Part shown: piece by piece, positions 1-16,223 of the stretch
Position numbering within the stretch: the first letter of the stretch is position 1
Layout of the letters: every line of letters starts with the position of its first letter
Source: a virus
Taxonomy: Duplodnaviria > Heunggongvirae > Uroviricota > Caudoviricetes
DNA length: 20,624 nt
IMG/VR virus record: IMGVR_UViG_2563366839_000008
Strand: one strand, 5' to 3'
The notes under the pieces: generated by a model
Told to the model about the DNA's origin: nothing
Database searches by the model: none
The model's input: only the letters and a program-made list of their open reading frames with translations
Translations under genes and position numbers: made by a program

Positions 1-1131
1 TCAAATGACCAGTTTTTTCCATTCCTTACCGCGTGCGTCGTTGTAAATATCGGTCATTTTTTGATTCGAATGGCCCAGCAAAATTTTGGTATCAACCCCC
101 TGCTCTCTGAACAATCGCTCTGATAAAGATCTCTGCTCATGGAAAGAGGGTGGGGTGCCATTAGCACGCCAGTTGTAATCCACAGAATCCCGGGCTTTTT
201 TAAATGCAACGGTTAATGTTGCTGGCTTAACCATCCCGCCGCGCTTAGCTGTCCCTTTCGCGTGATGGTGGTGCAATAGCCACGGACTAAGAACGCAATC
301 GCGGCAGGATGACACTACATCATCCAGGGTGAGATTTAATTTATCGCAACGCAGAGCCAGAGGGATGGCAATCCGGGTTCCTGTTTTTTGCTGTTCGACA
401 TGAAGATAACCATCCCGGATATCCGAAAATTGCATTTTGCAAATATCTGAAAGGCGCTGGCCTGTCATCAGTGCCAGCAGCATACCGCGCTGTAAAAAGT
501 AACCATCCTTTTCCGCTGCGTTATAAATCATCATCCACTCATCAAAAGTCAGTCGCTGTCTTGATATCCGCACCTGCGGTTTTTTTGCCGATTCTGCAGG
601 GTTAAAGCCTGGCGGGACATCGCCCGTTTGCTGAGCTTCCCGGAAAACATCGATCAGTACTTTCCTGAAAATTTGTCCCATTCTGTTATGTCCTCTGGCC
701 TTGTACTCTTCCAGTACTGATACCACATCTTTTACGGTTATGGCATCTAACGGTCTGGTGCCAAAACGTTCATCAAATACCCTGAGAGGGGCCGCTTTCT
801 GTTTCAGCGTGTTGAGTTTGATCTCGCCGTTTTCATATCTTTCCTGTTGAATTTTTCTGTAATTATTCAGAAAAATGGTAACGGTTGATGAACCGCCGGT
901 ATCACTAATAATTTTCTCCTGCAGACTGAGCATTTGTTCCATTTGCTGCCGGGCAAGACGGCTGTTCGCTTCTGCTGCAATAGTTTCTGCCAGTTTCTGG
1001 TCAATACTGCCGAGACCGTGATTTTTGCCTGTTATGGGATGCCTGTAACGCCAGTAAACTTTGTTATTTCTTTTGTCAAAATACGGAGATAATCCCGGAA
1101 CATCGGTTTTATATTTTCGCGGGCGCGCCAT
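1..1131 (-). CDS. int: Lambda-family tyrosine recombinase (phage integrase), complete 376 aa; stop codon at 1-3
   Basis: Full-length ORF. C-terminus has the HxxR box (FHEQRSLSERL), LLGH and the catalytic Tyr in TDIYNDARG, as in lambda Int; box I TGQRLSDI is upstream. First gene at the left edge, so the att site should lie just outside the window. Confidence 0.9.
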   Translation of the reverse strand: MARPRKYKTDVPGLSPYFDKRNNKVYWRYRHPITGKNHGLGSIDQKLAETIAAEANSRLARQQMEQMLSLQEKIISDTGGSSTVTIFLNNYRKIQQERYENGEIKLNTLKQKAAPLRVFDERFGTRPLDAITVKDVVSVLEEYKARGHNRMGQIFRKVLIDVFREAQQTGDVPPGFNPAESAKKPQVRISRQRLTFDEWMMIYNAAEKDGYFLQRGMLLALMTGQRLSDICKMQFSDIRDGYLHVEQQKTGTRIAIPLALRCDKLNLTLDDVVSSCRDCVLSPWLLHHHHAKGTAKRGGMVKPATLTVAFKKARDSVDYNWRANGTPPSFHEQRSLSERLFREQGVDTKILLGHSNQKMTDIYNDARGKEWKKLVI

Positions 1132-1421: not shown

Positions 1422-3893
1422 TTAAAAATCAGCCTGATTCGGGATCAGTTTTTGCCAGATAACTGAAACGTATTTTGCCTGGTAACGGGCGTCATCAAGT
1501 GCATTATGGCGCTCACCTTCGAATGGAATAGCCGTTCTGGCATCGAAGTCTATGGCTTTCCCCAGCTCAACGATTGTGCGTACATCGCGATCGTTGTAGT
1601 AACGCCACGGGCAGGGGATCCCCTGCCGTTCGTATGAACGGCGCAAAATCGTGTTGTCGAAGTTGGCTCCATTTCCCCAGACCTGAACAAAAAATTCGCC
1701 GGAGTTTTCGTCGATAAATTCCCGCAATTGCAGCAGTGCATCATCTAACGGGATTTCATCGGTCAGAATGGCAGATTGCGCCTCCCGTGATTGCTTAAGC
1801 CACCATTTAATGGTGCCACGATCAATGACTCCGCCAGCAGTATCCATATCGATGGTCTTACTAAATTCCGGCCCCATATCTCCGGTTTGCGGATCGAAAA
1901 ATATTGCACCTATTGAGATAAGCGGGGCATCGGGATTTTTTCCCATGGTTTCAAGGTTGATCATCATGTGGTGCCACATTCTGCTGGTGGATGTGATAAC
2001 GTGATGACCGTTCATCGCAATTAAGGGATCTGCCGTCTCGCCAGTTTCACTATCGCTGGCGTGATCCTGAGCGCTACCAGCATTCTCCTTGTGTGGATGT
2101 TCAGCGCCTTCCATTTCCTTCGGATCATTTTCCTGAACTTCAACCTGATTCTCTTCATCGAATGTTTCCTGGTATGTTGCGTCGCCCATTACCGCGCCAC
2201 AATCAGGGCAGTTGCCACCACCGCTTTGACCGCAGGCGGTGCAGACTTTTTCCGGTTCCTGTTGCGCTACTGGCTCAGGTTGTTTCGTTTCTGGCTCGTT
2301 TTGTAACGCATTTGGGCTGTTTTGTTCCGCTTTCTGGCCGTTCTGTTCCGTTTCTTGTTGGTTCTGATTCACTGAATCGCGGGTTTCAATCCCCTTCACC
2401 CATTTCGGATCATTCGGGTCGCTAATCCCTGCAACAAATTCACCACGTGATACAGCAAGCAACTTATTGGCGTCAGGCTGGCTGATATTGGCTGCCTGCA
2501 TAATTTTGTTTACTTCGTCAGCGGTAACTTTTACCGGCTCTGGTTGTGCGATCGTGTCAGATGCACCAGTATTTTGTTGTGAACCTGAGTATGTACTGTT
2601 TTTGCGGGCGAAATATTCTTCTTTCGTGATTTCAGTAGCCCCGGCAGCCAGCGCCTTATCCAGACCAGAAAGTTTGTTTGCGCGACCGTATTTTTCGCCA
2701 TCCTTGTCGGTGAAGAGGAAGTAGAACGGCCCTTCACGCTCTACAGATGGTTCGACTTCCACTTTGCATTCGGTTTTTTCGTTGTCCGGAATTGCCGTTT
2801 CCACTGCATCAGTTTCTGGTACTGGCGACGAGAGAGTATCAGTTGCGCTCTGATTTCTTCCTTCATCTTCAAACACGCCCTTTGTAGTCAGGTATTCAGT
2901 AATGTATTTGTTCAGTGCCACAGGGTCTTTGTGAATGTCGATCGGACGTTCACGGACAAGGCCAAAAATAGTCTGGCGGTCGTAGCGAAGGGCATCAGGC
3001 TGTTTGCGCATTGATGCCGAGATACGCTTCCAGTCTTCGCGGTCGTTGTCGATAACTTCATTTTTTGCCCAGCGATGGATGCTGCCGTCAATGTTTCCGG
3101 CATCCACATCACCAGGCCAGAGAGCGTAGGCCAGTTCGTCATCCAGTGTTTTCCATGTCTGCTTGTATTCGCGATGAATGGCAGCAATGACCGGGCTGAT
3201 TTTTCCTGTTGAATTTTCACTGTGCTGTTGATTGGTTCTGGCGCGGGCGAGATCAACAACAGACGTGTATTTTCCGGTTTCCTTGCGTTCACCTTCGCGA
3301 CGTTTTTTCCAGATGCGCATCTCTGCCTGAATTTCGGGCCATTTGGCACCAGGCTTACATTTATGCTTAACCCACCCGATGGCATGCAGCTTAAGCTCCG
3401 GATACATGGCGTTAACTTCTGGCATTTTCATCAACGCTTCAACGATATGTCCGTCGAATGTTGCCATGTCTTCCTGCAACAATTCCTGTGCGCTAATAAC
3501 CATATCAACGGTGATGTTTTCACATGTGTCGAACTTAACCATGACAGCGTTCTGTACTTCAGGGGCCAGCTTGTCAAAAGTGACGTTCATCGGATCGGAT
3601 TCAGTCTCAACCGGGACAAAAGAAGCAGACTCCTCATCCCAGCGGTTTTCCTGCATATATTCAGCATCCCATGAATCGAGGGCAGGGCGGGGTATGCCAG
3701 GTTTATCCTCGCAGACAATAAATTTATAAGCGCAGTCCTGAGCAGCCGGATAATGTTCCAGGAACTGCCAGTGAAATTTTGCTCGAGCACGGCGTTCGTC
3801 GCCAACTTCAATGGCTGTGGCTACAGCCACAGCGCCTTCTTCCCTTGTTGCCAGTTCGTCAGGAATAGCGGCGCAAATAAAGACTTTACTCAT
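1422..3893 (-). CDS. Large early-left protein (YdfE / exodeoxyribonuclease VIII-like), 823 aa, with Q/E-rich linker, CxxC..CxxC zinc ribbon and C-terminal DEDDh-like 3'-5' exonuclease domain
   Basis: Long uninterrupted ORF. C-terminal motifs WGNGANFDNTIL (Exo II-like) and HNALDDARYQAKY (Exo III-like H-x-A-x-x-D-A); internal CTACG...CPDCG zinc ribbon. Sits at the ydfE position after dicB-ydfD. Function inferred from motifs and synteny. Confidence 0.8.
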   Translation of the reverse strand: MSKVFICAAIPDELATREEGAVAVATAIEVGDERRARAKFHWQFLEHYPAAQDCAYKFIVCEDKPGIPRPALDSWDAEYMQENRWDEESASFVPVETESDPMNVTFDKLAPEVQNAVMVKFDTCENITVDMVISAQELLQEDMATFDGHIVEALMKMPEVNAMYPELKLHAIGWVKHKCKPGAKWPEIQAEMRIWKKRREGERKETGKYTSVVDLARARTNQQHSENSTGKISPVIAAIHREYKQTWKTLDDELAYALWPGDVDAGNIDGSIHRWAKNEVIDNDREDWKRISASMRKQPDALRYDRQTIFGLVRERPIDIHKDPVALNKYITEYLTTKGVFEDEGRNQSATDTLSSPVPETDAVETAIPDNEKTECKVEVEPSVEREGPFYFLFTDKDGEKYGRANKLSGLDKALAAGATEITKEEYFARKNSTYSGSQQNTGASDTIAQPEPVKVTADEVNKIMQAANISQPDANKLLAVSRGEFVAGISDPNDPKWVKGIETRDSVNQNQQETEQNGQKAEQNSPNALQNEPETKQPEPVAQQEPEKVCTACGQSGGGNCPDCGAVMGDATYQETFDEENQVEVQENDPKEMEGAEHPHKENAGSAQDHASDSETGETADPLIAMNGHHVITSTSRMWHHMMINLETMGKNPDAPLISIGAIFFDPQTGDMGPEFSKTIDMDTAGGVIDRGTIKWWLKQSREAQSAILTDEIPLDDALLQLREFIDENSGEFFVQVWGNGANFDNTILRRSYERQGIPCPWRYYNDRDVRTIVELGKAIDFDARTAIPFEGERHNALDDARYQAKYVSVIWQKLIPNQADF

Positions 3894-3986
3894 TTTGTTT
3901 TAACCTCATGACAGATTTAAGGATGAACAAATCCCTGCCATTGCTGGCATATAAGAATGAAACCGGATATTTATTACGGAACTGTT

Positions 3987-4178
3987 TTAAAGACCTGCCG
4001 GGATTTCGATATTATCCTGGTGAATAACTTTATCGACCGGGTAACAGTTACCGGGAATTTTCTGTTCGGTTGCTGCAGTCATACACTCCTGCATTGTCCT
4101 GTGAACACTGACTGCAATATCAACTGGCTCTCCGGAAACAAGAAAAACTGTCAGAACAAGTGCAAATGCTGTATTCAT
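3987..4178 (-). CDS. ydfD: YdfD-like small protein (63 aa, N-terminal hydrophobic segment; Qin-prophage lysis-associated protein family)
   Basis: Translation MNTAFALVLTVFLVSGEPVDIAVSVHRTMQECMTAATEQKIPGNCYPVDKVIHQDNIEIPAGL matches recalled YdfD. ATG overlaps the dicB stop (ATGA), indicating coupling. Confidence 0.75.
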   Translation of the reverse strand: MNTAFALVLTVFLVSGEPVDIAVSVHRTMQECMTAATEQKIPGNCYPVDKVIHQDNIEIPAGL

Positions 4179-4363
4179 TGCCAGCATCCTTTTTGTATCG
4201 GACGTAAACGGGCCAGCATTGAAAGAATGCATATTTTATTTAATAGCTCCCGTTCGTGTTTTCTCTTGTTAATGGCATCTTCAGTAAATACAGGGTTACT
4301 GATAGTGACACCAATTTCAAAACAACCTTCAGACGTATTAACGTTTGGTAATAACGTTTCCAT
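4175..4363 (-). CDS. dicB: DicB cell-division inhibitor (62 aa)
   Basis: Translation METLLPNVNTSEGCFEIGVTISNPVFTEDAINKRKHERELLNKICILSMLARLRPIQKGCWQ closely matches recalled DicB. SD GAGGA lies 7 nt upstream of the ATG at 4361-4363; directly downstream of dicF. Confidence 0.85.
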   Translation of the reverse strand: METLLPNVNTSEGCFEIGVTISNPVFTEDAINKRKHERELLNKICILSMLARLRPIQKGCWQ

Positions 4364-4537
4364 TATCGCGTCCTCAACAATGAATTTTGTGATGCGGTGC
4401 CTGGTGCCTCCAGGTGACGTTAACCAGTTAACAATTAACGCCGGATACAGAGAATCCACCCATAACACTGTTTTTGGTTTTAACTGTTCCGCGTGCGCTC
4501 AGCCGCATTCACCACATCACAAAATTCACTTTAAAAA

Positions 4538-4590
4538 GGGCGGCAGAGCAGTCACGGAGTAAAACTGATACCGCCAAACGTCACCAGAAA
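4538..4590 (-). ncRNA. dicF: DicF small RNA (53 nt; antisense regulator of ftsZ and other mRNAs)
   Basis: Minus strand reads TTTCTGGTGACGTTTGGCGGTATCAGTTTTACTCCGTGACTGCTCTGCCGCCC followed by TTTTT, matching recalled DicF including its 3' terminator hairpin (GGCGG/CCGCC). Upstream of dicB as in the Qin dicB operon. Confidence 0.85.
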
Positions 4591-4925
4591 ATTGATAACA
4601 GAGGGCGTTGCAGCGGGGTTGTCACTTAAGCGTATGGTCAACCTGACAACCCGGTGTCCTCAACGGGGGAAGGAATAACCCCGCCATACTTACCGCCGCG
4701 CCATTTCGCGGATTGCCACAACCGGAAACGCACGGTCGACGAAAATTTAACGACAGGCTATCTATGAACCAGCTACCTCGCCGGGCGCTTTCGCGTTATG
4801 GTCTGACTTTTCAGGGAAATATCCTTTCAGTAAACTGTCAGTGCCGGATGCTCACCCGTGTCCGGCGCACGCACTCCACCTCACCCGTGGAGAACTCCTT
4901 AATCACCAACCCTCAGGAGGGTGAA

Positions 4926-5201
4926 ATGTCGACTGAAAATGATGAAATCATTAACTCCCTGATACGCCAGATTAATAATTTTGATAAAGCATTGCAACAT
5001 GCTGCGGCGCGTAGTGATATAACTCTTTTAGCAATTTCATTTCTTGCATCTGTTATGGATAAAAATGAAGTCGTACGACAGAGTCTTGTTGATTATATCG
5101 ACTCGCTTCAACCCGGCACTTTCAATCATGAGAGCTTCAATCATGAGAAAGAGCATGTTAAGTCTGTAATTAATTCTCTTATTTTGAATCAAAAGAATTA
5201 A
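4926..5201 (+). CDS. Hypothetical protein, 91 aa, AT-rich, convergent with the repressor-side operon
   Basis: ATG at 4926 preceded by a strong SD (CAGGAGGGTGAA-ATG). Coding sequence is markedly AT-rich relative to its flanks. Its 3' end overlaps the 3' end of the minus-strand 110-aa gene. No recognisable domain. Confidence 0.45.
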   Translation: MSTENDEIINSLIRQINNFDKALQHAAARSDITLLAISFLASVMDKNEVVRQSLVDYIDSLQPGTFNHESFNHEKEHVKSVINSLILNQKN

Positions 5202-5935: not shown

Positions 5936-6610
5936 TCAGTCTAAGTATTGATGTATTTGTGAAACTTTACCTTTAATGGTGTAACCACCATTCAGTTCGA
6001 TGGGTTTGTAAAGCGGATTCAGTGACAACAGATAGATGTTTGGTCCGTCAATCGCAACTTTTTTTAGTGTTACGTTTGGCGTTCCTTCCAATTGGATTAA
6101 GATTATTTTTCCCACCAGTTCTCTAATGTTACTTGAGCATGGTGTGATCAGCACGGTAGATCCGTCGGGGATGGTTGGGAGGCCGTTAGAGTTTGTCATC
6201 GCATCTCCCTCAACATGCAATAAAAAAGAGTTTTCAGCGGTTTTTGTCATGACATCAACCCAATTCTTAATACCAGGAATCTCGGTTACTGGACAACTCA
6301 TATCCCAATAACCAGCCTGTTCCCACGTTAAAACGGGCAACCGGGCGATGTTGTCACTAATGTAAGGGTACTGATTCAGACGCAGATCATCGGCTTTATC
6401 GTGACCGTCCTTTCCATAAAGAATCCATTCAGGAGATTTGGAAAGCAATTTTGACAGTAGATACAAATTCTCACCGTCAGGTTTTGAAGAGCCATTTTCC
6501 CATTTTGTTACGGATACACGAGATATGCCGATTGCTTTCGCAACCTGCTGTTGGGTTAATCCAACGTCTTTTCGACGATTCCGAATACGTTCGCTGATAG
6601 TGTTTTTCAT
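5936..6610 (-). CDS. CI/C2-like prophage repressor: N-terminal XRE-type HTH plus C-terminal LexA-like S24 peptidase domain with Ala in place of the catalytic Ser
   Basis: N-terminus MKNTISERIRNRRKDVGLTQQQVAKAIGISRVSVTKWENG parallels P22 C2. Ala-Gly cleavage site present (WEQAGYW). S24 motif reads EGDAMT (GCG codon) instead of GDSM; Lys retained in TLKKVAIDG. Divergent from the cro-like gene. Start chosen by alignment to C2; the ORF extends to 6709. Confidence 0.85.
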   Translation of the reverse strand: MKNTISERIRNRRKDVGLTQQQVAKAIGISRVSVTKWENGSSKPDGENLYLLSKLLSKSPEWILYGKDGHDKADDLRLNQYPYISDNIARLPVLTWEQAGYWDMSCPVTEIPGIKNWVDVMTKTAENSFLLHVEGDAMTNSNGLPTIPDGSTVLITPCSSNIRELVGKIILIQLEGTPNVTLKKVAIDGPNIYLLSLNPLYKPIELNGGYTIKGKVSQIHQYLD

Positions 6611-6701
6611 GTAACCAATGTTACTACCAAGTGATGTTGCTATGGTTGACATTGTTATGTAACTATTGTTACCCTTCTGCTCGAAATAACAGGAGAGTTT
6701 T
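6611..6701. promoter_or_regulatory. Divergent immunity promoter/operator region between the repressor and cro-like genes
   Basis: 91-bp intergenic region with repeated TGTTAC/TGTTAT half-sites, a near-palindrome GTTATGTAAC, a consensus -35 TTGACA at 6646-6651 and a candidate -35/-10 pair TTGCTA (6637-6642)/TAACTA (6660-6665) facing the cro-like gene. Exact operators not resolved. Confidence 0.4.
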
Positions 6702-6917
6702 ATGTTCAAAGATGATGTTCTGCGCTATTTCAAAAAAAAGCGACTAGTAGCTGAGGCTCTTGGAATTTCACATGTGGCTGTTGTGCGGTGGAAAGCCGTT
6801 ATTCCCAAACTTCGCGCAATGGAACTGGATGAAATTACTAACAGTGAATTGAAATACAACCCAGAACTTTACAAGAAGCAGGATAGCACCTCAAACGAAG
6901 GAAAGAATGATTCATGA
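6702..6917 (+). CDS. dicC: Cro-like small HTH regulator (DicC / YdaS family)
   Basis: 71 aa with SD CAGGAGAG upstream; divergent from the repressor. Motifs AEALGISHVAVVRW and LKYNPELY resemble DicC/YdaS-type Cro analogues. Confidence 0.7.
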   Translation: MFKDDVLRYFKKKRLVAEALGISHVAVVRWKAVIPKLRAMELDEITNSELKYNPELYKKQDSTSNEGKNDS

Positions 6918-7339
6918 AAATCAAGCATGAACACATCCGCATGGCGATGAATGTCTGGGCGCATCCGGACGGCGAAAAAGTACCGGCTGCGAAAATTACC
7001 AAAGCGTATTTCGAGCTGGGAATGACGTTCCCGGAACTGTATGACGACAGCCATCCGGAAGCCCTGGCCCGTAATACCCAGAAAATTTTCCGTTGGCTGG
7101 ATAAAGACACCCCTGATGCTGTTGAAAAAATGCAGGCTCTGTTACCGGCGATCGAAAAGGCGATGCCGCCTTTGCTGGTGGCCCGTATGCGTAGCCACAG
7201 TTCTGAATATTACCGTGATATCGTCGAACGGAGGGATCGGCTGGTGAAGGATGTCGATGATTTTGTTGCGTCAGCGGTTGTTTTGTATGACCAGATGAAT
7301 CGCGGCGGCCCGGCAGGGAATGCTGTGGTGATGCACTAA
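6914..7339 (+). CDS. YdaT-like protein (CII functional-analogue family)
   Basis: 141 aa; ATG overlaps the cro-like stop (ATGA). N-terminus MKIKHEHI... is typical of YdaT-family proteins that follow YdaS/DicC-like genes. Family assignment from recollection. Confidence 0.6.
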   Translation: MKIKHEHIRMAMNVWAHPDGEKVPAAKITKAYFELGMTFPELYDDSHPEALARNTQKIFRWLDKDTPDAVEKMQALLPAIEKAMPPLLVARMRSHSSEYYRDIVERRDRLVKDVDDFVASAVVLYDQMNRGGPAGNAVVMH

Positions 7340-7361: not shown

Positions 7362-8324
7362 ATGAGCAGCAAGCTTCATGGTCTTGTCTGGGAAGGGTGC
7401 GCCTTCACCGGCATGATCTTATCCAGGGTGGCGGTTATGGCCCGTCTTGCAGACTACAGCAATGACGAGGGCGTGTCATGGCCTGCCATTGAAACTATCC
7501 GGCGTCAGATCGGTGCAAGAAGTGAATCCACAGTGAAATCGGCTATTGCAGAACTGGCGAAAGAGGGCTGGCTGACGAAGGAAGAGCGTAAGGTCGGTGG
7601 GCGTAATGTAAGCAATATCTATCGGCTTAATGTGGAAAAACTCGAAGCAGCTGCGGCGGCGGCGCGTGAGTCATATAAACCGAAAAGAAAAATTAGCCCG
7701 GCAAAAAATGACCCGTTAACAGTTGACCCGTCAAATATTGACCCCTCAACGGTTGACCCGTCAAATTTTGATGGATCAACTGTTGATAAAAAACTGCCGA
7801 TTAGGGGGCCGATGATTGACCCCGATCCGTCAGTATTAAAACCTGATCCGTCAGATAAAAGATCTTCTTGTCCGGACGCTTCGCAACCGGACCCGCAGAC
7901 GGCTGAACAGGATTTTTTAACCCGACACCCTGACGCGGTTGTGTTCAGTGCGAAAAAACGCCAGTGGGGAAGTCAGGAAGATTTGGTGTGCGCACAGTGG
8001 ATCTGGGGACGAATCGTGAGTCTTTACGAGCAGGCGGCCAGCTATGATGGCGAGATCACTAGACCGAAAGAACCCAACTGGACAGCATGGGCCAATGACG
8101 TTCGCACAATGCGGATGCTGGATGGCAGAACTCACAGACAAATTTGTGAAATGTTTGGGCGTCTCCAGCGGGATTCGTTCTGGGTAAAAAACATCATGAG
8201 TCCGGCAAAACTCCGGGAAAAATGGGATGAACTGGTTATCCGCCTGGGGCGTTCGCCTGCGCAGCGTTGCGTGAATCACATTTCTGAACCGGACACTGAA
8301 ATTCCGCCGGGCTTCAGGGGGTAA
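7362..8324 (+). CDS. Replication initiator, lambda O-like N-terminal DNA-binding domain, with iterons inside the gene
   Basis: ATG at 7362 with a G-rich SD (the ORF also opens at GTG 7347). N-terminal winged-helix segment GVSWPAIETIRRQIGARSESTVKSAIAELAKEGWLTKEE resembles the O-protein N-domain. Directly repeated sequences are embedded right after this domain. Confidence 0.6.
   Translation: MSSKLHGLVWEGCAFTGMILSRVAVMARLADYSNDEGVSWPAIETIRRQIGARSESTVKSAIAELAKEGWLTKEERKVGGRNVSNIYRLNVEKLEAAAAAARESYKPKRKISPAKNDPLTVDPSNIDPSTVDPSNFDGSTVDKKLPIRGPMIDPDPSVLKPDPSDKRSSCPDASQPDPQTAEQDFLTRHPDAVVFSAKKRQWGSQEDLVCAQWIWGRIVSLYEQAASYDGEITRPKEPNWTAWANDVRTMRMLDGRTHRQICEMFGRLQRDSFWVKNIMSPAKLREKWDELVIRLGRSPAQRCVNHISEPDTEIPPGFRG
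7705..7860. repeat. Iteron array (putative prophage origin of replication) embedded in the O-like gene
   Basis: Direct repeats of TTGACCCGTCAAAT / TTGACCCCTCAACGG / TTGACCCGTCAAAT, then TTGATGGATCAACTG, TTGACCCCGATCCGTCAG and CTGATCCGTCAGAT; encoded as DPLTVDPSNIDPSTVDPSNFDGSTVD in the protein. Confidence 0.6.
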
Positions 8325-8364
8325 GTGTTAATTTCTGGTCATGAGGTAATTTTCAGGAGGGCTT

Positions 8365-8787
8365 GTGGCAAAAGTTTTTACACAAGAAGAGCGGGAAAAA
8401 ATTAAAGGGCAGGTTGTTGAACTCGTACGCCAGAGTGGGCGCGAGACGTTACGACAACTGGAAACTAAAACTGGGGCAACAAGATATCTGATGAGCGTTC
8501 TGGCCAGAGAGCTGGTTGCCAGTGGCGATGTATACAACTCTGGTTACGGGTTATTCCCGTCTGAACAGGCGCGTAAGGACTGGCAAAATGCCCGTAAAAA
8601 GCTCTCAAGGGCAAAGCTGAAGAAACCATCTGCGGTTGATCCGGACCTTATCTGGTCATTACCTGACGGAGAAATACGTCGCTACGACAGGCGCCTAAAC
8701 ATAATCTGTCGCGAGTGCCGGAAGAGTGAAGCTATGCAGCGTGTACTGGCGTTTTATCAGGGGAATTTTGAGGAGGTGGTGCGGTGA
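8365..8787 (+). CDS. Hypothetical phage protein, 140 aa
   Basis: GTG start with strong SD AGGAGG 4 nt upstream; contains CRECRK motif. No confident domain assignment. Confidence 0.55.
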   Translation: MAKVFTQEEREKIKGQVVELVRQSGRETLRQLETKTGATRYLMSVLARELVASGDVYNSGYGLFPSEQARKDWQNARKKLSRAKLKKPSAVDPDLIWSLPDGEIRRYDRRLNIICRECRKSEAMQRVLAFYQGNFEEVVR

Positions 8788-11478: not shown

Positions 11479-11689
11479 AAACGGTTTGCGGGAAAAGGAG
11501 AGTTAAGTAGAATTGCAGCGGGTGCTTGAGGCTATCTGTCTCAGGCATGAACACCAAAAGGCAGATAGAGAAAAGCCCCAGTTAACATTACGCGTCCGGC
11601 AAGACGCTTAACATTAATCTGAGGCCATATCTATGCTCTACACACGTAGGTTAGCCTCTTACGTGCCGAAAGGCAAGGAGAAGCAGGCT

Positions 11690-11845
11690 ATGAAGCAGCA
11701 AAAGGCGATGCTAATCGCCCTGATCGTCATCTGTTTAACCGTCATTGTGACGGCACTGGTAACGAGGAAAGACCTCTGCGAGGTACGAATCCGAACCGGC
11801 CAGACGGAGGTCGCTGTCTTCACAGCTTACGAACCTGAGGAGTAA
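11690..11845 (+). CDS. hokD: Hok/Gef-family type I toxin (HokD/RelF-like), 51 aa
   Basis: Translation MKQQKAMLIALIVICLTVIVTALVTRKDLCEVRIRTGQTEVAVFTAYEPEE matches recalled HokD; SD AAGGAG 8 nt upstream. Structured leader at 11480-11689 and a 3' hairpin at 11853-11877. Confidence 0.85.
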   Translation: MKQQKAMLIALIVICLTVIVTALVTRKDLCEVRIRTGQTEVAVFTAYEPEE

Positions 11846-12010: not shown

Positions 12011-12661
12011 ATGAATGAAAATCAGTTAGCTCCTTGTTGGGAATTTCAACCTTATCTTGCTGAAAACTATGTTCGCCACTTGTTGGCGGAGATCGCTAAC
12101 GTACTTGAGCAGCTGTACTATCATAAGCACGCATTAGACAGCAACTGGTCTGAAGGTGTAAGGGCTTATGATTGGGTCAGAAATCATCTTATTCAAAATG
12201 AAGATGCAATTCCTGGCCTTGAGATGATTTCCAAGGGGTTGGACTATGTAGTTGCTTTAAATAAAGTTCCGCTACAATTTACCAAAGATTGCATTAATAA
12301 CCCCAAAAAGAAACATCGTCTGCGTCGAAATAAAGTAGAGTATGAGCAGCTCTCATTGTTTGGTGATGTTGAGGCTGAGCAAGATATTACATGGCGAGTC
12401 ATAGCTGAGCCTTTTTTATCCGAAGAGGGCGATGGTGAATTAGAGTCCACACTGCCTCGTTGGGAGGTAGCTCTTGTTGGATTTAATACTTATGGTGCTC
12501 AGATTAGTATAGTTTCTCATCAATCTACAGCATCGATGCCGCTTATGCCTCTTGATTATAACACACTCCCTGACGAAGCGGAGATTAATAAGGTGCCTCT
12601 TCGTCGGCGTACGAAGGATAAAGATTTGGATGTGAGCAGTGATGGAACATCAGGTGAATAA
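12011..12661 (+). CDS. Unknown protein, 216 aa; upstream partner of the HTH-metallopeptidase gene (candidate effector/toxin)
   Basis: AT-rich ORF with a weak SD, overlapping the downstream gene by 20 nt. No recognisable catalytic motif. Flanked by terminators. Confidence 0.65.
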   Translation: MNENQLAPCWEFQPYLAENYVRHLLAEIANVLEQLYYHKHALDSNWSEGVRAYDWVRNHLIQNEDAIPGLEMISKGLDYVVALNKVPLQFTKDCINNPKKKHRLRRNKVEYEQLSLFGDVEAEQDITWRVIAEPFLSEEGDGELESTLPRWEVALVGFNTYGAQISIVSHQSTASMPLMPLDYNTLPDEAEINKVPLRRRTKDKDLDVSSDGTSGE

Positions 12662-13745
12662 CTTCACTGAGTATCGGGGTGATAAGCTCAAACTAGCGAG
12701 AATGGCTGTTGGGCTTTCTTGTGAAGAGTTAGCCGAAAAAATTGGCAAGACAAAGCAATTCGTTAGCAAACTGGAGAAGGGGTGCAGGCCATCGGAGCAA
12801 TGTCTTGAGTTAATATCTTCAGCGCTTATGATTAAGTCCAGTTTTCTTTTTACTGAACGAAAATACGCTCTGGAAAGTGATGTCTGCCATTTTCGGAGTA
12901 AGAAGTCCAGGACTCAAACGCTGACTAATAGTGTATTGGCCAGGGCTGAGATTCTTAATATTATAATTTCTGCTGTTGAAGGTGAAATCGAATTTCCTGA
13001 CGTTAACATACCGGAGCACCCAGGGGCTGAATTACTTACTCCGAATGATATTGAGCGAGTGGCAGAAGATTGTCGCCGTGCCTGGAATTTAGGTCTTGGC
13101 CCTATATCATCAATGGTTAAATTGGCGGAGAGTTTAGGGGTAATCGTTGCGCATGTTACGGGAGTCGATGATCGTGTTGATGCTTTTACTGTTCACAATA
13201 ACAGGCCTGTTATCATCAGGAACAATGTTAAAAAAAGCATATGTAGATTTCGCTCTGATTTAGGTCATGAATTAGGGCATTTAGTAATGCATGAGGGCAT
13301 AACGACAGGTGATAAACTTACGGAATCACAAGCCGATCACTTTTCGAGCGCCTTATTAGTTCCCAGGTTATCTTTCATTAAAGAATTTCCACGAATACGA
13401 GGTAAGCAATTCGACTGGAATGCTCTGGTTGAATTTAAACTTAGATGGAAAATCAGCCTTAAAATGTGTATTTATCGAGCCAGCGCATTAGGCTTATTGA
13501 CCCAGGAACAGGCAAGAACTGGCTATATGCATCTTAATTCCAGAGGGTATACGAGAGTTGAACCTGGTGATGAACTTTTGCGCCCTGAAGAACCCGGCAT
13601 GCTGGCCGAGGCGATTGAAATGCTGGATGATGCAACCTGGCTAAGAATTCTTATGAAAACTGGCTTGAGCCAAGATTTAATTCGTGAGTTGTTCTCCATC
13701 AACAGACCTATTACAAATCCAAGAAATATTTTCCAGATTGTTTGA
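12642..13745 (+). CDS. XRE-family HTH fused to ImmA/IrrE-family zinc metallopeptidase (COG2856-like, HEXXH motif), 368 aa
   Basis: N-terminal HTH LKLARMAVGLSCEELAEKIGKTKQFVSKLEKG; central zinc-peptidase motif DLGHELGHLVMHE. ATG at 12642 (GTG at 12639) is coupled to the upstream gene. AT-rich. Confidence 0.8.
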   Translation: MEHQVNNFTEYRGDKLKLARMAVGLSCEELAEKIGKTKQFVSKLEKGCRPSEQCLELISSALMIKSSFLFTERKYALESDVCHFRSKKSRTQTLTNSVLARAEILNIIISAVEGEIEFPDVNIPEHPGAELLTPNDIERVAEDCRRAWNLGLGPISSMVKLAESLGVIVAHVTGVDDRVDAFTVHNNRPVIIRNNVKKSICRFRSDLGHELGHLVMHEGITTGDKLTESQADHFSSALLVPRLSFIKEFPRIRGKQFDWNALVEFKLRWKISLKMCIYRASALGLLTQEQARTGYMHLNSRGYTRVEPGDELLRPEEPGMLAEAIEMLDDATWLRILMKTGLSQDLIRELFSINRPITNPRNIFQIV

Positions 13746-15470: not shown

Positions 15471-16223
15471 ATGAACCTTGAAGCCTTACCGAAATATTAC
15501 TCCCCAAAATCTCCAAAATTGAGCGATGACGCACCGGCGACAGGCTCTGGTGGTTTAACAATTACGGATGTAATGGCTGCGCAGGGGATGGTGCAGTCGA
15601 AAGCACCGCTTGGGTTTGCCTTATTCCTGGCAAAAGTTGGTGTTCAGGATCCTCAGTTTGCGATTGAAGGTCTGCTCAATTACGCGATGGCACTGGATAA
15701 CCCGACATTGAACAAATTGAGTGAAGAAACCCGGTTACAGATCATCCCTTACCTTGTGAATTTTGCCTTTGCTGATTATTCCAGGTCTGCGGCAAGTAAG
15801 GCTCGCTGTGAGCATTGTGCTGGTACTGGATTTCATAATGTATTGCGCGAAGTGGTGAAACACTCCAGAAGCGGGGAATCTGTTATCAAGGAAGAGTGGG
15901 TGAAGGAACTGTGTCAGCATTGTCATGGTAAGGGAGAAGTCAGCACAGCGTGCAGAGGGTGTAAGGGTAAAGGTATTGTCCTGGATGAAAAAAGAACCCG
16001 GCTTCATGGCACGCCTGTTTATAAGGTTTGTGGGCGTTGCAATGGAAACCGGTTTAGCCGTTTACCAACCACACTGGCGCGGCTTCATGTCCAGAAGCTG
16101 GTACCAGACCTGACGGATTATCAGTGGTACAAAGGATATGCAGATGTCATTGATAAACTGGTTACAAAGTGCTGGCAGGAAGAAGCATATGCAGAGATAC
16201 AATTGAGAAAGGTGACAAGATAA
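15471..16223 (+). CDS. Late-gene antitermination protein Q (phage 21/82 QuuQ-type), 250 aa
   Basis: SD GGAGAA upstream. Cys-rich zinc-binding region (CEHCAGTG...CQHCHGKGE...CRGCKGKG...CGRCNG). Followed by a promoter, a short leader and an intrinsic terminator, the classic PR'-qut-tR' layout. Confidence 0.8.
   Translation: MNLEALPKYYSPKSPKLSDDAPATGSGGLTITDVMAAQGMVQSKAPLGFALFLAKVGVQDPQFAIEGLLNYAMALDNPTLNKLSEETRLQIIPYLVNFAFADYSRSAASKARCEHCAGTGFHNVLREVVKHSRSGESVIKEEWVKELCQHCHGKGEVSTACRGCKGKGIVLDEKRTRLHGTPVYKVCGRCNGNRFSRLPTTLARLHVQKLVPDLTDYQWYKGYADVIDKLVTKCWQEEAYAEIQLRKVTR

What the first reader, a model, noticed from the sequence alone, without database searches (positions are those of the whole stretch)
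7705..7860. Iteron-type origin inside the O-like initiator gene, with no recognisable helicase-loader gene downstream
Several TTGACCCGTCAAAT-like direct repeats lie within the coding sequence just after the DNA-binding N-domain, as with lambda ori inside gene O. No P-, DnaC- or DnaB-like gene follows; the next ORFs are small unknowns of 140, 84 and 103 aa. The replication module may recruit host helicase or loader by a different route.
Basis: partly seen in the sequence, partly recalled or inferred. Interest (0 to 1): 0.4.

Follow-up and report, generated by a model that had tools for sequence, protein, structure and literature searches.

The report
Prophage origin; initiator with DnaT-like tail
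The repeats very probably mark the replication origin of an E. coli lambda-like prophage, placed inside its initiator gene as in phage lambda; the phage has no helicase-loader gene, but its initiator ends in the same 20-residue tail as the host protein DnaT, which suggests, without proving, that it borrows the host loader DnaC.

Summary
Six 12-bp palindromic sites (TTGACCCGTCAA) sit in exact 15-bp register at 7693-7779, with weaker copies out to 7856. They lie in the part of the initiator gene (7362-8324) that codes a disordered linker. The regularity exceeds what synonymous recoding of the same peptide gives.

[quoted passage not shown] Lambda and phi80 iterons occupy the same gene position.

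The initiator is a mosaic: an HTH_36 winged helix, the linker, a lambda-O-type C-domain, and a 20-aa tail 70% identical to the tail of E. coli DnaT.

No P-, DnaC- or DnaB-like gene exists anywhere in the window. The identical initiator is followed by a DnaC homologue in about two thirds of related viral contigs. Here that cassette is absent, cut exactly at gene boundaries.

The tail type tracks the loader type. Lambda-like or WN..W tails are followed by P (16 of 16). GFRG tails are followed by a DnaC-like gene or by none, never by P. DnaT-DnaC and Rac YdaU-YdaV show the same pairing.

I infer that the tail recruits host DnaC-DnaB. The feature is ordinary in kind, but it yields a testable lead on how DnaT recruits DnaC.

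The parts
7362..8324 (+). Replication initiator gene, 320 aa, with a lambda-O/phi80-gp15-type architecture
   Evidence: phrog_391 'replication initiation O-like', E 4e-115. Pfam HTH_36. C-domain homologous to lambda O. 100% identical in many E. coli genomes, including ST131 strains EC958 and JJ1886.
7362..7673 (+). N-terminal winged-helix DNA-binding domain (aa 1-104), the presumed iteron reader
7693..7794 (.). Iteron array: six 12-bp palindromic units (consensus TTGACCCGTCAA) in exact 15-bp register, starting at 7693, 7708, 7723, 7738, 7753 and 7768, plus a decayed seventh unit at 7783
   Evidence: Synonymous-recoding null. Array sequence changes with N-domain class in homologues.
7816..7864 (.). 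Second repeat element: TTGACCCC, then two GATCCGTCAG copies 21 bp apart. Four GATC (Dam) sites lie within 7774-7864.
   Evidence: Family D3. The same GATCCGTCAG pair is present in SfIV and 689R6. GATC positions. Its role is unknown; it may be part of the origin.
7686..7898 (+). Coding region for the disordered linker (aa 109-179), which contains the origin repeats
   Evidence: AF2 pLDDT below 50 for aa 109-179. Length varies among homologues in steps of 5 aa = 15 nt.
7899..8252 (+). Globular helical C-domain (aa 180-297), lambda-O type
8262..8321 (+). DnaT-type C-terminal tail (aa 301-320, QRCVNHISEPDTEIPPGFRG), the proposed docking peptide for a DnaC-family loader
   Evidence: 14 of 20 residues identical to E. 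coli DnaT 160-179. Disordered in AF2. The tail is conserved across DnaT orthologues. The same tail ends Rac YdaU.
8323..8355 (.). 33-bp junction. Relatives with the identical initiator carry a 1552-bp cassette here (DnaC homologue of 248 aa plus a protein of about 256 aa).
   Evidence: Homology to L006 stops at 8322 and resumes at 8356. Cassette content.
8365..8787 (+). DUF977 / LygF gene (140 aa), not a loader
   Evidence: Pfam DUF977, E 6e-29. It also follows the DnaC-like cassette in the long variant. It is absent after the initiator in SfIV and in Klebsiella prophages.
7631..7639 (-). Single DnaA-box-like 9-mer (TTTTCCACA), about 55 bp upstream of the array
   Evidence: There are 4 matches in the window against 2.6 expected, so this is not significant. 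It is listed only as a possible accessory site.

Best explanation
Positions 7693-7860 are the replication origin of a lambdoid E. coli prophage, built into the linker-coding part of its own initiator gene, as in lambda and phi80.

The initiator has four parts: (i) an HTH_36 winged-helix N-domain, whose dimers would bind the 12-bp palindromic iterons spaced every 15 bp; (ii) a disordered linker encoded by the iterons; (iii) a lambda-O-type helical C-domain; and (iv) a flexible 20-residue tail almost identical to the tail of the host primosomal protein DnaT.

The module is the loader-less allele of a common 'initiator + DnaC homologue' module. The dnaC-like/DUF1627 cassette is absent, cut exactly at gene boundaries.

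Proposed mechanism: initiator dimers load onto the array and form an O-some-like complex. Their DnaT-type tails capture a DnaC-family loader carrying DnaB. With no phage copy present, that loader is the host DnaB6-DnaC6 complex. DnaB is then placed on DNA opened next to the array.

Shown by sequence analysis: the repeats, the domain architecture, the absence of any loader gene, and the tail/loader co-occurrence. Inferred: initiator-iteron binding, origin firing, and the tail-DnaC contact.
For: Repeats and their statistics.

Same position in the gene as the lambda and phi80 iterons, and phi80 gp15 sites are annotated there.

Array changes with N-domain: in 40+ homologues from 36 species genomes and several phages, an array lies at about nt 290-520 of the gene. 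Its period (15, 21-24 nt) and consensus change with the N-domain class. HannyBb keeps about 90% identity in the C-domain and tail but has an unrelated N-domain and a 23-nt array.

Architecture.

Tail.

Tail versus next gene. In the GTDB and phage loci, WN..W-type and lambda-like tails are followed by a lambda-P homologue in 16 of 16 cases. GFRG-type tails are followed by P in 0 of about 20 cases, by a DnaC-like gene in 2, and otherwise by unrelated genes. Lambda O and phi80 gp15 (tails LD.xNTDW.YG) are followed by P and gp14. Of 120 viral ORFs ending IPPGFRG*, 59 are followed by a DnaC-like gene, 48 by DUF977, 11 by other genes, 2 reach a contig end, and 0 are followed by P. These span at least 15 N-terminal classes.

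E. coli dnaT-dnaC and Rac ydaU-ydaV show the same tail-then-DnaC order, although DnaT and YdaU are otherwise unrelated to this protein. YdaV is 50% identical to DnaC.

The identical initiator occurs with the cassette (about 52 contigs) and without it (about 28), with a clean junction.

Loader-less modules work. SfIV, a deposited complete phage genome, has gp41 as its only replication gene. HannyBb is also loader-less next to its initiator. The short junction is present in 1854 of 5426 complete E. coli genomes.
Against: There is no experiment on this family. Binding of the N-domain to the repeats, origin activity and the tail's partner are all inferred.

No clear AT-rich unwinding element flanks the array: GC drops only to 0.35-0.40 over short stretches.

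The 15-bp spacing leaves only 3 bp between 12-bp sites, tighter than lambda's 20-24 bp, so the true binding unit may be different.

The last three sense codons (TTC AGR GGG) together with the stop codon (TAA/TGA) are conserved at DNA level and form the Shine-Dalgarno sequence of the dnaC-type gene. Part of the tail-DnaC linkage could therefore be a translational-coupling signal.

The sampled loci are related and mosaic, so the counts are not independent events.

Brezellec et al. (PMC5509034) report a 'DnaT C-terminal motif' in DopC, which is paired with a P-like DopE. If that motif is the tail, it is a counter-example.

The 2026 preprimosome paper favours the DnaT N-domain as the DnaB/DnaC recruiter (PMC13377028).

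Some genomes carry both the short and the long module, so a co-resident prophage could supply a DnaC-like protein in trans.
Confidence: 0.6

Rival explanations
1. The DnaT-type tail does something other than bind DnaC. It could bind DnaB directly. It could help ssDNA binding or oligomerisation, as the C-terminus of DnaT does modestly. It could plug the initiator into the host PriA/PriB/DnaT restart machinery, which would then load DnaB.
For: Removing DnaT residues 154-179 roughly doubles the apparent Kd for ssDNA and lowers cooperativity (PMC4132743). The partner of the tail has never been identified (PMC5778457, PMC13377028). The tail is all that this protein shares with DnaT.
Against: A tail that contacts DnaB or ssDNA should be compatible with P-type loaders, which also deliver host DnaB. 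Yet it is never found with P: 0 of 120 and 0 of about 20. It precedes DnaC-family genes in four otherwise unrelated protein contexts. The phage C-domain is not a DnaT-like three-helix bundle, so a DnaT-style tail-to-bundle contact has no obvious partner within the phage protein.
Confidence: 0.22
2. The module is crippled. The loader cassette was lost, so this prophage cannot replicate on its own. It is either a decaying prophage or depends on a DnaC-like protein from a co-resident prophage.
For: About two thirds of contigs with the identical initiator carry the DnaC-like gene. The conserved AGG GGG TAA Shine-Dalgarno at the gene end now has no gene behind it, which looks like a relic. Some genomes carry both the long and the short module.
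Against: The break lies exactly at the stop codon and 9 nt before the next start codon, which is typical of modular exchange and leaves no pseudogene debris. The short junction is in 34% of complete E. coli genomes, more than the long one at 23%. Deposited phage genomes have loader-less modules: SfIV across its whole genome, and HannyBb and vB_EcoM-689R6 in the region next to the initiator. The initiator ORF is intact and 100% conserved in many genomes.
Confidence: 0.12
3. One of the small downstream proteins (DUF977 of 140 aa, or the 84- or 103-aa proteins) is an unrecognised helicase loader or adaptor.
For: They sit where lambda has P and ren. DUF977 has no known function. phrog_2391 'DNA binding protein' gives a weak hit to its N-terminus.
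Against: DUF977 is also present downstream of the DnaC-like cassette, so it does not replace it. It is absent from other loader-less modules: in SfIV a PerC-like gene follows, in Klebsiella a Dam methylase follows, and elsewhere ParB-HTH or MT-A70 genes follow. There are no helicase or loader family hits in Pfam, PHROGs or NCBIfam.
Confidence: 0.04
4. The repeats are only a peptide repeat (DPSxx) in a low-complexity linker and have no function as DNA.
For: The repeats are in frame and encode a 5-residue repeat.
Against: The DNA is more regular and more palindromic than synonymous recodings of the same peptide. Ser codon choice is fixed at TCA. The linker is predicted disordered, so there is no evident structural reason for the peptide repeat. 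Unrelated N-domains carry unrelated arrays at the same spot, including 22-24-nt periods that are not multiples of 3. Lambda and phi80 origins lie at the same position.
Confidence: 0.02

Closest known systems
Lambda ori inside gene O, with O-P-DnaB loading; phi80 gene 15 / gene 14
   Same: The iteron array lies inside the initiator ORF at the same nucleotide offset and codes the inter-domain linker. Each iteron has dyad symmetry. The C-domain is homologous (35-36% identity, E about 1e-18). The gene sits in the same place, right after cII.
   Different: The N-domain is HTH_36, and Pfam reported no Phage_rep_O match for this protein. The sites are 12 bp at 15-bp spacing, against 18-19 bp at 20-24 bp. 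The tail is DnaT-type instead of ...NTDW.YG... No P gene is present. No obvious AT-rich block is present.
Rac prophage ydaU-ydaV, and the 'long' allele of this same module (initiator + DnaC homologue + DUF1627)
   Same: The C-terminal tail is the same (YdaU ends VNTVSLPDSAIPPGFRG). The cro/cII-like (YdaS/YdaT-type) genes upstream are the same. In the long allele the initiator is 99.7% identical at DNA level.
   Different: The window lacks the DnaC homologue and the DUF1627 gene. YdaU has a DUF1376 N-domain and a different body.
E. coli primosomal protein DnaT (dnaT-dnaC operon)
   Same: The last 20 residues are 70% identical. The tail is flexible in both. In DnaT and in the long phage alleles, the tail-bearing gene is immediately followed by a DnaC-family gene (PMC5778457).
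DopC/DopE of Alteromonadales-type bacteria (Brezellec et al. 2017, PMC5509034)
   Same: The architecture is HTH_36 N-domain plus a 'DnaT C-terminal motif', and phage descent is proposed.
   Different: DopC is chromosomal, has no iterons reported, and is paired with a lambda-P-like DopE. Here iterons are present and no P-like gene exists.
Iteron plasmids whose Rep protein recruits host DnaB-DnaC (the pSC101 RepA and R6K pi type; from general knowledge, not tested here)
   Same: One element-encoded initiator binds iterons, and the host helicase and loader are used.
   Different: The initiator fold and the origin layout differ. Those plasmids usually also need DnaA boxes, whereas only one non-significant DnaA-box-like site lies nearby here.

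Membership tests
Lambda-type origin embedded in the initiator gene | Four or more direct repeats with internal dyad symmetry inside the initiator ORF | tested here: met
   Six units in 15-bp register, each a TTGAC-nn-GTCAA palindrome.
Lambda-type origin embedded in the initiator gene | Array lies between the DNA-binding N-domain and the C-domain, in linker-coding DNA | tested here: met
   Array at nt 342-431, corresponding to the disordered linker aa 109-179. Lambda nt 349-435 and phi80 nt 367-439.
Lambda-type origin embedded in the initiator gene | Iteron sequence changes together with the initiator's DNA-binding domain | tested here: met
   Array period and consensus change with N-domain class across 40+ loci.
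Lambda-type origin embedded in the initiator gene | Adjacent AT-rich DNA-unwinding element | tested here: inconclusive
   Only short stretches at GC 0.35-0.40 (7680-7740 and 7760-7800). No lambda-like 40-bp AT block.
Lambda-type origin embedded in the initiator gene | Initiator binds the repeats, and the fragment supports initiator-dependent replication | not testable with these tools
   Needs EMSA or footprinting and an ori-plasmid assay.
Lambda O protein family | Phage_rep_O-type N-terminal domain | tested here: not met
   Pfam reports HTH_36 and a weak DnaD_N match only. The N-domains do not align convincingly with lambda O.
Lambda O protein family | O-type C-terminal domain (the P-interacting half in lambda) | tested here: met
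   tblastn to lambda O, phage 21 O, phi80 gp15 and Stx-phage O: 35-39% identity over aa 153-300, E about 1e-18. Conserved W/P/R columns in alignment A4.
Lambda O protein family | Partner loader gene P immediately downstream | tested here: not met
   No PF06992 hit and no tblastn match to four P-type proteins anywhere in the window.
DnaT (primosomal protein I; PF17948, NF002770) | N-terminal oligomerisation / PriB-binding domain | tested here: not met
   BLASTP and hhalign find nothing outside the tail.
DnaT (primosomal protein I; PF17948, NF002770) | Three-helix-bundle ssDNA-binding C-domain | tested here: not met
DnaT (primosomal protein I; PF17948, NF002770) | Conserved C-terminal tail [KR]RD[VIL]N..SEPD..IP.GFRG | tested here: met
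   QRCVNHISEPDTEIPPGFRG against [20 protein letters not shown], 14 of 20 identical. Tail conservation across 107 DnaT orthologues.
Initiator + DnaC-type loader module (Rac ydaU-ydaV type) | DnaC/IstB-family AAA+ gene directly after the initiator | tested here: not met
   Absent here. Present after the identical initiator in about 52 of 80 IMG/VR contigs and in 1244 E. coli genomes.
DnaD-like / replisome-organiser C-domain | DnaD-type helical domain | tested here: inconclusive

The most novel reading that the evidence does not exclude
The approximately 20-residue tail ...R.VN..S.PD..IP.GFRG is a portable docking peptide for DnaC-family helicase loaders. It is shared by the host restart protein DnaT and by many unrelated prophage initiators. 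Lambdoid initiators would then carry a 'tail code': the last 15-25 residues, not the globular C-domain, specify which loader is used (lambda-type or WN..W tails for P; GFRG tails for DnaC). Phages with a GFRG tail can drop their own loader gene and use host DnaC. If this is right, it also answers the long-open question of how DnaT hands the DnaB-DnaC complex to the restart primosome, and it suggests that dnaT-dnaC descends from a phage initiator-loader pair.
Probability: 0.4. Interest if true: 0.75.

Novelty: new variant of a known kind. Interest (0 to 1): 0.5.

Why it matters
The origin itself is a routine member of the lambda/phi80 class. It can be annotated in the 1,500 or so complete E. 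coli genomes that hold most of this gene, where the gene is currently labelled only 'helix-turn-helix domain-containing protein'.

The useful part is the comparative pattern. The same globular O-type C-domain carries interchangeable short tails that track the loader gene next door. The tail used here is the conserved, functionally unassigned tail of DnaT.

That gives a cheap, direct experiment on an old problem. How PriA-PriB-DnaT recruits DnaB-DnaC is described as unknown in PMC4132743 and PMC13377028. The experiment is to test whether the IP.GFRG tail binds DnaC.

The pattern also explains how about a third of E. coli genomes can host lambdoid replication modules that have no loader gene.

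Tried and rejected
- **DnaT homology beyond the tail.** BLASTP and hhalign of the C-domain family against a 107-sequence DnaT alignment found nothing beyond the tail. I rejected the reading 'C-half is a DnaT domain'.
- **Sequence searches for the C-domain.** Pfam and the PDB sequence profile gave nothing for the C-domain. Homology to lambda O showed up only with tblastn against phage genomes.
- **DnaA boxes.** Not enriched: 4 matches against 2.6 expected.
- **AT-rich unwinding element.** Not evident.
- **First viral-contig scan.** It returned 80 loci with the identical initiator, which was useless for diversity. The same loci later revealed the presence/absence of the cassette.
- **Literature.** Searches for 'initiator-solo' and 'DnaT-like' found nothing. 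The 2019 DnaT C-domain crystal paper (PMID 30755302) is not held. No paper in the library assigns a partner to the DnaT tail.
- **Downstream small ORFs as loaders.** Considered and rejected (see the rival explanations).
- **Protein complexes.** The tools offered here predict only single chains, so complexes could not be predicted.
Full report
**What the window is.** ORF and family scans show the early region of a lambdoid prophage. In order it holds: integrase (1-1131, minus strand); excisionase; a RecE-like exonuclease (1422-3893, minus); a CI-type repressor (5936-6709, minus); Cro (6702-6917); a CII/YdaT-like protein (6914-7339); a 320-aa 'replication initiation O-like' protein (7362-8324; phrog_391, E 4e-115); DUF977/LygF (8365-8787); many small ORFs; a DUF968/HNH protein; antiterminator Q (15471-16223); a DNA methylase; and lysis genes. 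The initiator gene is 100% identical in many complete E. coli genomes, including ST131 strains EC958 and JJ1886. There it is annotated only as 'helix-turn-helix domain-containing protein'.

**The observation.**
- Six 12-bp units matching TTGACCCGTCAA start at 7693, 7708, 7723, 7738, 7753 and 7768, exactly 15 bp apart. They have 3, 2, 0, 1, 0 and 2 mismatches. A decayed unit lies at 7783, and partial copies lie at 7816-7832 and 7842-7854.
- Each unit is a palindrome (TTGAC-nn-GTCAA), as expected for a site read by a dimeric winged-helix protein.
- Five of the six TGACCC hexamers in the 20.6-kb window lie in 7709-7817.
- The array is in frame and encodes a DPSxx peptide repeat, so I tested the 'coding coincidence' reading directly. 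I kept the peptide and redrew synonymous codons 20,000 times. This gave 0.16 exact 5+2+5 palindromes on average, against 3 observed (fraction reaching 3 = 0.0002). Period-15 identity was 0.49 against 0.67 observed, and no recoding reached it.
- Six of seven Ser codons in the linker are TCA, against 2 of 21 elsewhere in the gene.

**Architecture of the initiator.** AlphaFold2 on a 34-sequence alignment gives four parts:
- a confident winged helix (aa 1-104);
- a disordered segment (aa 109-179), which is exactly the part encoded by the repeats;
- a helical C-domain (aa 180-297);
- a disordered tail (aa 298-320).

**Is the array an origin?** Three comparative results say yes.
1. The array occupies nt 342-431 of the gene. 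The lambda iterons occupy nt 349-435 of O. The annotated phi80 gp15 binding sites occupy nt 367-439 of gene 15.
2. In 36 loci from different species genomes, plus phages and prophages, nearly every homologue has a tandem array at about nt 290-520 of the gene. Its period and consensus follow the N-domain class. Examples:
   - MSSKLHGLVW-type: 15 nt, TTGACCC(G/C)(T/C)CAA
   - MSTKLTGYVW-type (SfIV, Klebsiella): 15 nt, TCTGACCCGTCAAAA
   - MSLLFAERPL-type (HannyBb): 23 nt, CATCAGGTCAAAATGA
   - MSMELMV-type: about 24 nt, GGTGAAGCAAATTCACC
   - other classes: 22 nt, CCGCAGAATCGCGG
   
   Several periods are not multiples of three, so peptide repetition cannot explain them. HannyBb keeps about 90% identity in the C-domain and tail but has an unrelated N-domain and an unrelated array. 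This is the classic signature of an ori-specificity module.
3. Homologue lengths differ in steps of 5 aa (320, 315, 310, 305), which corresponds to gain or loss of whole 15-nt units.

Two things are missing. There is no clear AT-rich unwinding block, and there is no experimental proof of any kind.

**No loader gene.** Pfam, PHROGs and NCBIfam find no P, DnaC/IstB or DnaB family in any ORF scanned between int and the lysis genes. tblastn with four P-type and three DnaC-type proteins finds no remnant in any frame, while positive controls score E below 1e-30. The 140-aa protein is DUF977.

**The C-terminal tail.** The last 20 residues, QRCVNHISEPDTEIPPGFRG, match the extreme C-terminus of E. coli DnaT, [20 protein letters not shown], at 14 of 20 positions. 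The matches are PDB 2ru8, 6aep and 9zbt_D, and NCBIfam NF002770 positions 159-179.
- Nothing else in the protein resembles DnaT (hhalign probability about 0.1%). The RAST/PHROG label 'primosomal protein' seen on relatives therefore rests on the tail alone.
- The tail is strongly conserved in 107 DnaT orthologues.
- In DnaT it is a flexible 20-residue segment (PMC5778457). Its removal only modestly weakens ssDNA binding (PMC4132743).
- How DnaT recruits DnaB-DnaC is described as unknown (PMC4132743, PMC13377028).

**The tail tracks the loader.** The family alignment shows one conserved globular C-domain carrying several unrelated tails. Gene context sorts them.
- ...AEWNTPEGWRDVL / ...GHWNSPEAWENTL tails, and the lambda-like ...NTDWIDG... 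tail, are followed by a lambda-P homologue in 16 of 16 loci: Salmonella, Edwardsiella, Erwinia, Serratia, Proteus, Rahnella, Xenorhabdus, Morganella and others.
- Lambda O and phi80 gp15 end ...LD(L/F)xNTDW(I/A)YG.. and are followed by P and gp14.
- GFRG-type tails (IPPGFRG, IPAGFRG, SGFRT, EGFRGY) are never followed by P. In two loci the next gene is a DnaC homologue. Otherwise it is an unrelated gene: DUF977, PerC/YfdN, Dam, MT-A70, ParB-HTH or DUF1627.
- An unbiased scan of viral contigs for ORFs ending IPPGFRG-stop gave 120 cases from at least 15 N-terminal classes. The next gene is DnaC-like in 59, DUF977 in 48, something else in 11, a contig end in 2, and P-like in 0. One of these classes starts MSNTAE, as phi80 gp15 does.
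- Rac YdaU has a DUF1376 N-domain and is unrelated elsewhere. It ends VNTVSLPDSAIPPGFRG and is followed by YdaV, which is 50% identical to DnaC.
- dnaT is followed by dnaC.

The tail-then-DnaC order therefore recurs in four otherwise unrelated protein bodies.

One caveat applies. The last codons TTC AGR GGG, together with the stop codon (TAA/TGA), are conserved at DNA level and form the ribosome-binding site of the dnaC-type gene. Upstream of them, only about half of the codons for identical residues are the same, so the peptide itself is under selection.

**This window is the loader-less allele.** Of 80 IMG/VR contigs encoding the identical 320-aa initiator, about 52 continue with a DnaC homologue (248 aa), a protein of about 256 aa (the corresponding 238-aa protein in L085 hits DUF1627) and then DUF977. 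About 28 go straight to DUF977, as this window does.
- Homology between the two forms stops at the initiator stop codon (8322) and resumes 9 nt before the DUF977 start (8356). The window has 33 bp there; the long form has 1552 bp.
- In 5,426 complete E. coli genomes, the short junction is contiguous in 1,854 and the long one in 1,244. Some genomes have both.
- Loader-less modules occur in deposited phage genomes. In SfIV, gp41 is the only replication gene annotated in the complete genome, and tblastn finds no P or DnaC there. HannyBb and vB_EcoM-689R6 have no loader among the genes that flank the initiator.

**Most likely mechanism.**
- Shown: a palindromic iteron array inside linker-coding DNA; a mosaic initiator; no phage loader; and a DnaT-type tail whose presence excludes P and accompanies DnaC-family genes.
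- Inferred: N-domain dimers fill the array. DNA next to the array opens. The tails capture a DnaC-family loader bound to DnaB. With no phage copy present, that loader is host DnaC.

I put about 0.85 on the origin reading and about 0.5 on the specific tail-DnaC step, giving 0.6 for the package. The rival explanations section covers the alternatives: another partner for the tail, a crippled module served in trans, a hidden loader among the small ORFs, and a pure peptide repeat.

**Comparison and novelty.** The origin is a new member of the lambda/phi80 class. The protein is not a DnaT family member, because two of DnaT's three defining features fail. It is only half a lambda-O family member. An HTH_36 domain combined with a DnaT C-terminal motif was noted before for DopC (PMC5509034). 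Initiator-only phage modules are not new (from my own knowledge of the phage replication literature; not verified here).

I did not find two things in the searchable literature: the tail-versus-loader correspondence, and its implication for DnaT. I therefore rate the finding a new variant of a known kind, of moderate interest, with a more interesting but unproven reading attached.

Noticed in passing
window 7774-7864: Four GATC (Dam) sites lie within about 90 bp, just right of the iterons, against 59 in the whole 20.6-kb window. Two of them sit in a repeated GATCCGTCAG motif that is also conserved in SfIV and 689R6. This could be a methylation-sensitive part of the origin.
   Followed up: partly
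window 8310-8324; L004 dnaT end; L128 ydaU end; L001 gp41 end: All four genes end TTC AGR GGG plus a stop codon. The rare Arg codon plus GGG forms the Shine-Dalgarno of the dnaC-type gene that starts a few nt later. In the window the signal persists with no gene behind it, which looks like a relic of the long allele.
   Followed up: partly
window 7693-7794 and homologues (alignment A1): Homologue lengths step by 5 aa (320/315/310/305), so iteron copy number varies between otherwise near-identical prophages. The 15-bp spacing leaves only 3 bp between 12-bp palindromes, much tighter than in lambda.
   Followed up: partly
L085 (P0071); L148: Mosaic initiators. P0071 has this window's N-domain, iterons and tail, but a different and shorter C-domain, and is followed by a DnaC-like gene. 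L148 has a phi80-like N-terminus (MSNTAE...) with a GFRG tail and a DnaC-like gene. N-domain plus iterons, C-domain, and tail plus loader behave as three exchangeable modules.
   Followed up: partly
L093, L095 (genome contigs): Contigs binned as a 'Bacillota bacterium' MAG and a 'Veillonella parvula' MAG carry this E. coli-type initiator (92% identity) and DUF977. This is most likely binning contamination.
   Followed up: no
window 12011-13745: An overlapping gene pair: a 216-aa protein of unknown function (phrog_5786), then a 368-aa protein with HTH_3 plus an IrrE/Peptidase_M78 domain. This resembles a metalloprotease-type antirepressor or regulator in the nin region.
   Followed up: no
window 11633-11845: An ORF matching the MokW-like hok/mok host-killing family (phrog_251), probably a type I toxin locus inside the prophage.
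   Followed up: no
window 3957-5201: Two plus-strand ORFs (201 and 162 aa) between the exonuclease and the repressor region have no Pfam or PHROG match.
   Followed up: no
window 7631-7639 (minus strand) and 8376-8384 (plus strand): Two perfect DnaA-box 9-mers (TTWTNCACA) flank the C-half of the initiator gene. The count is not above chance for the window as a whole (4 against 2.6 expected).
   Followed up: yes
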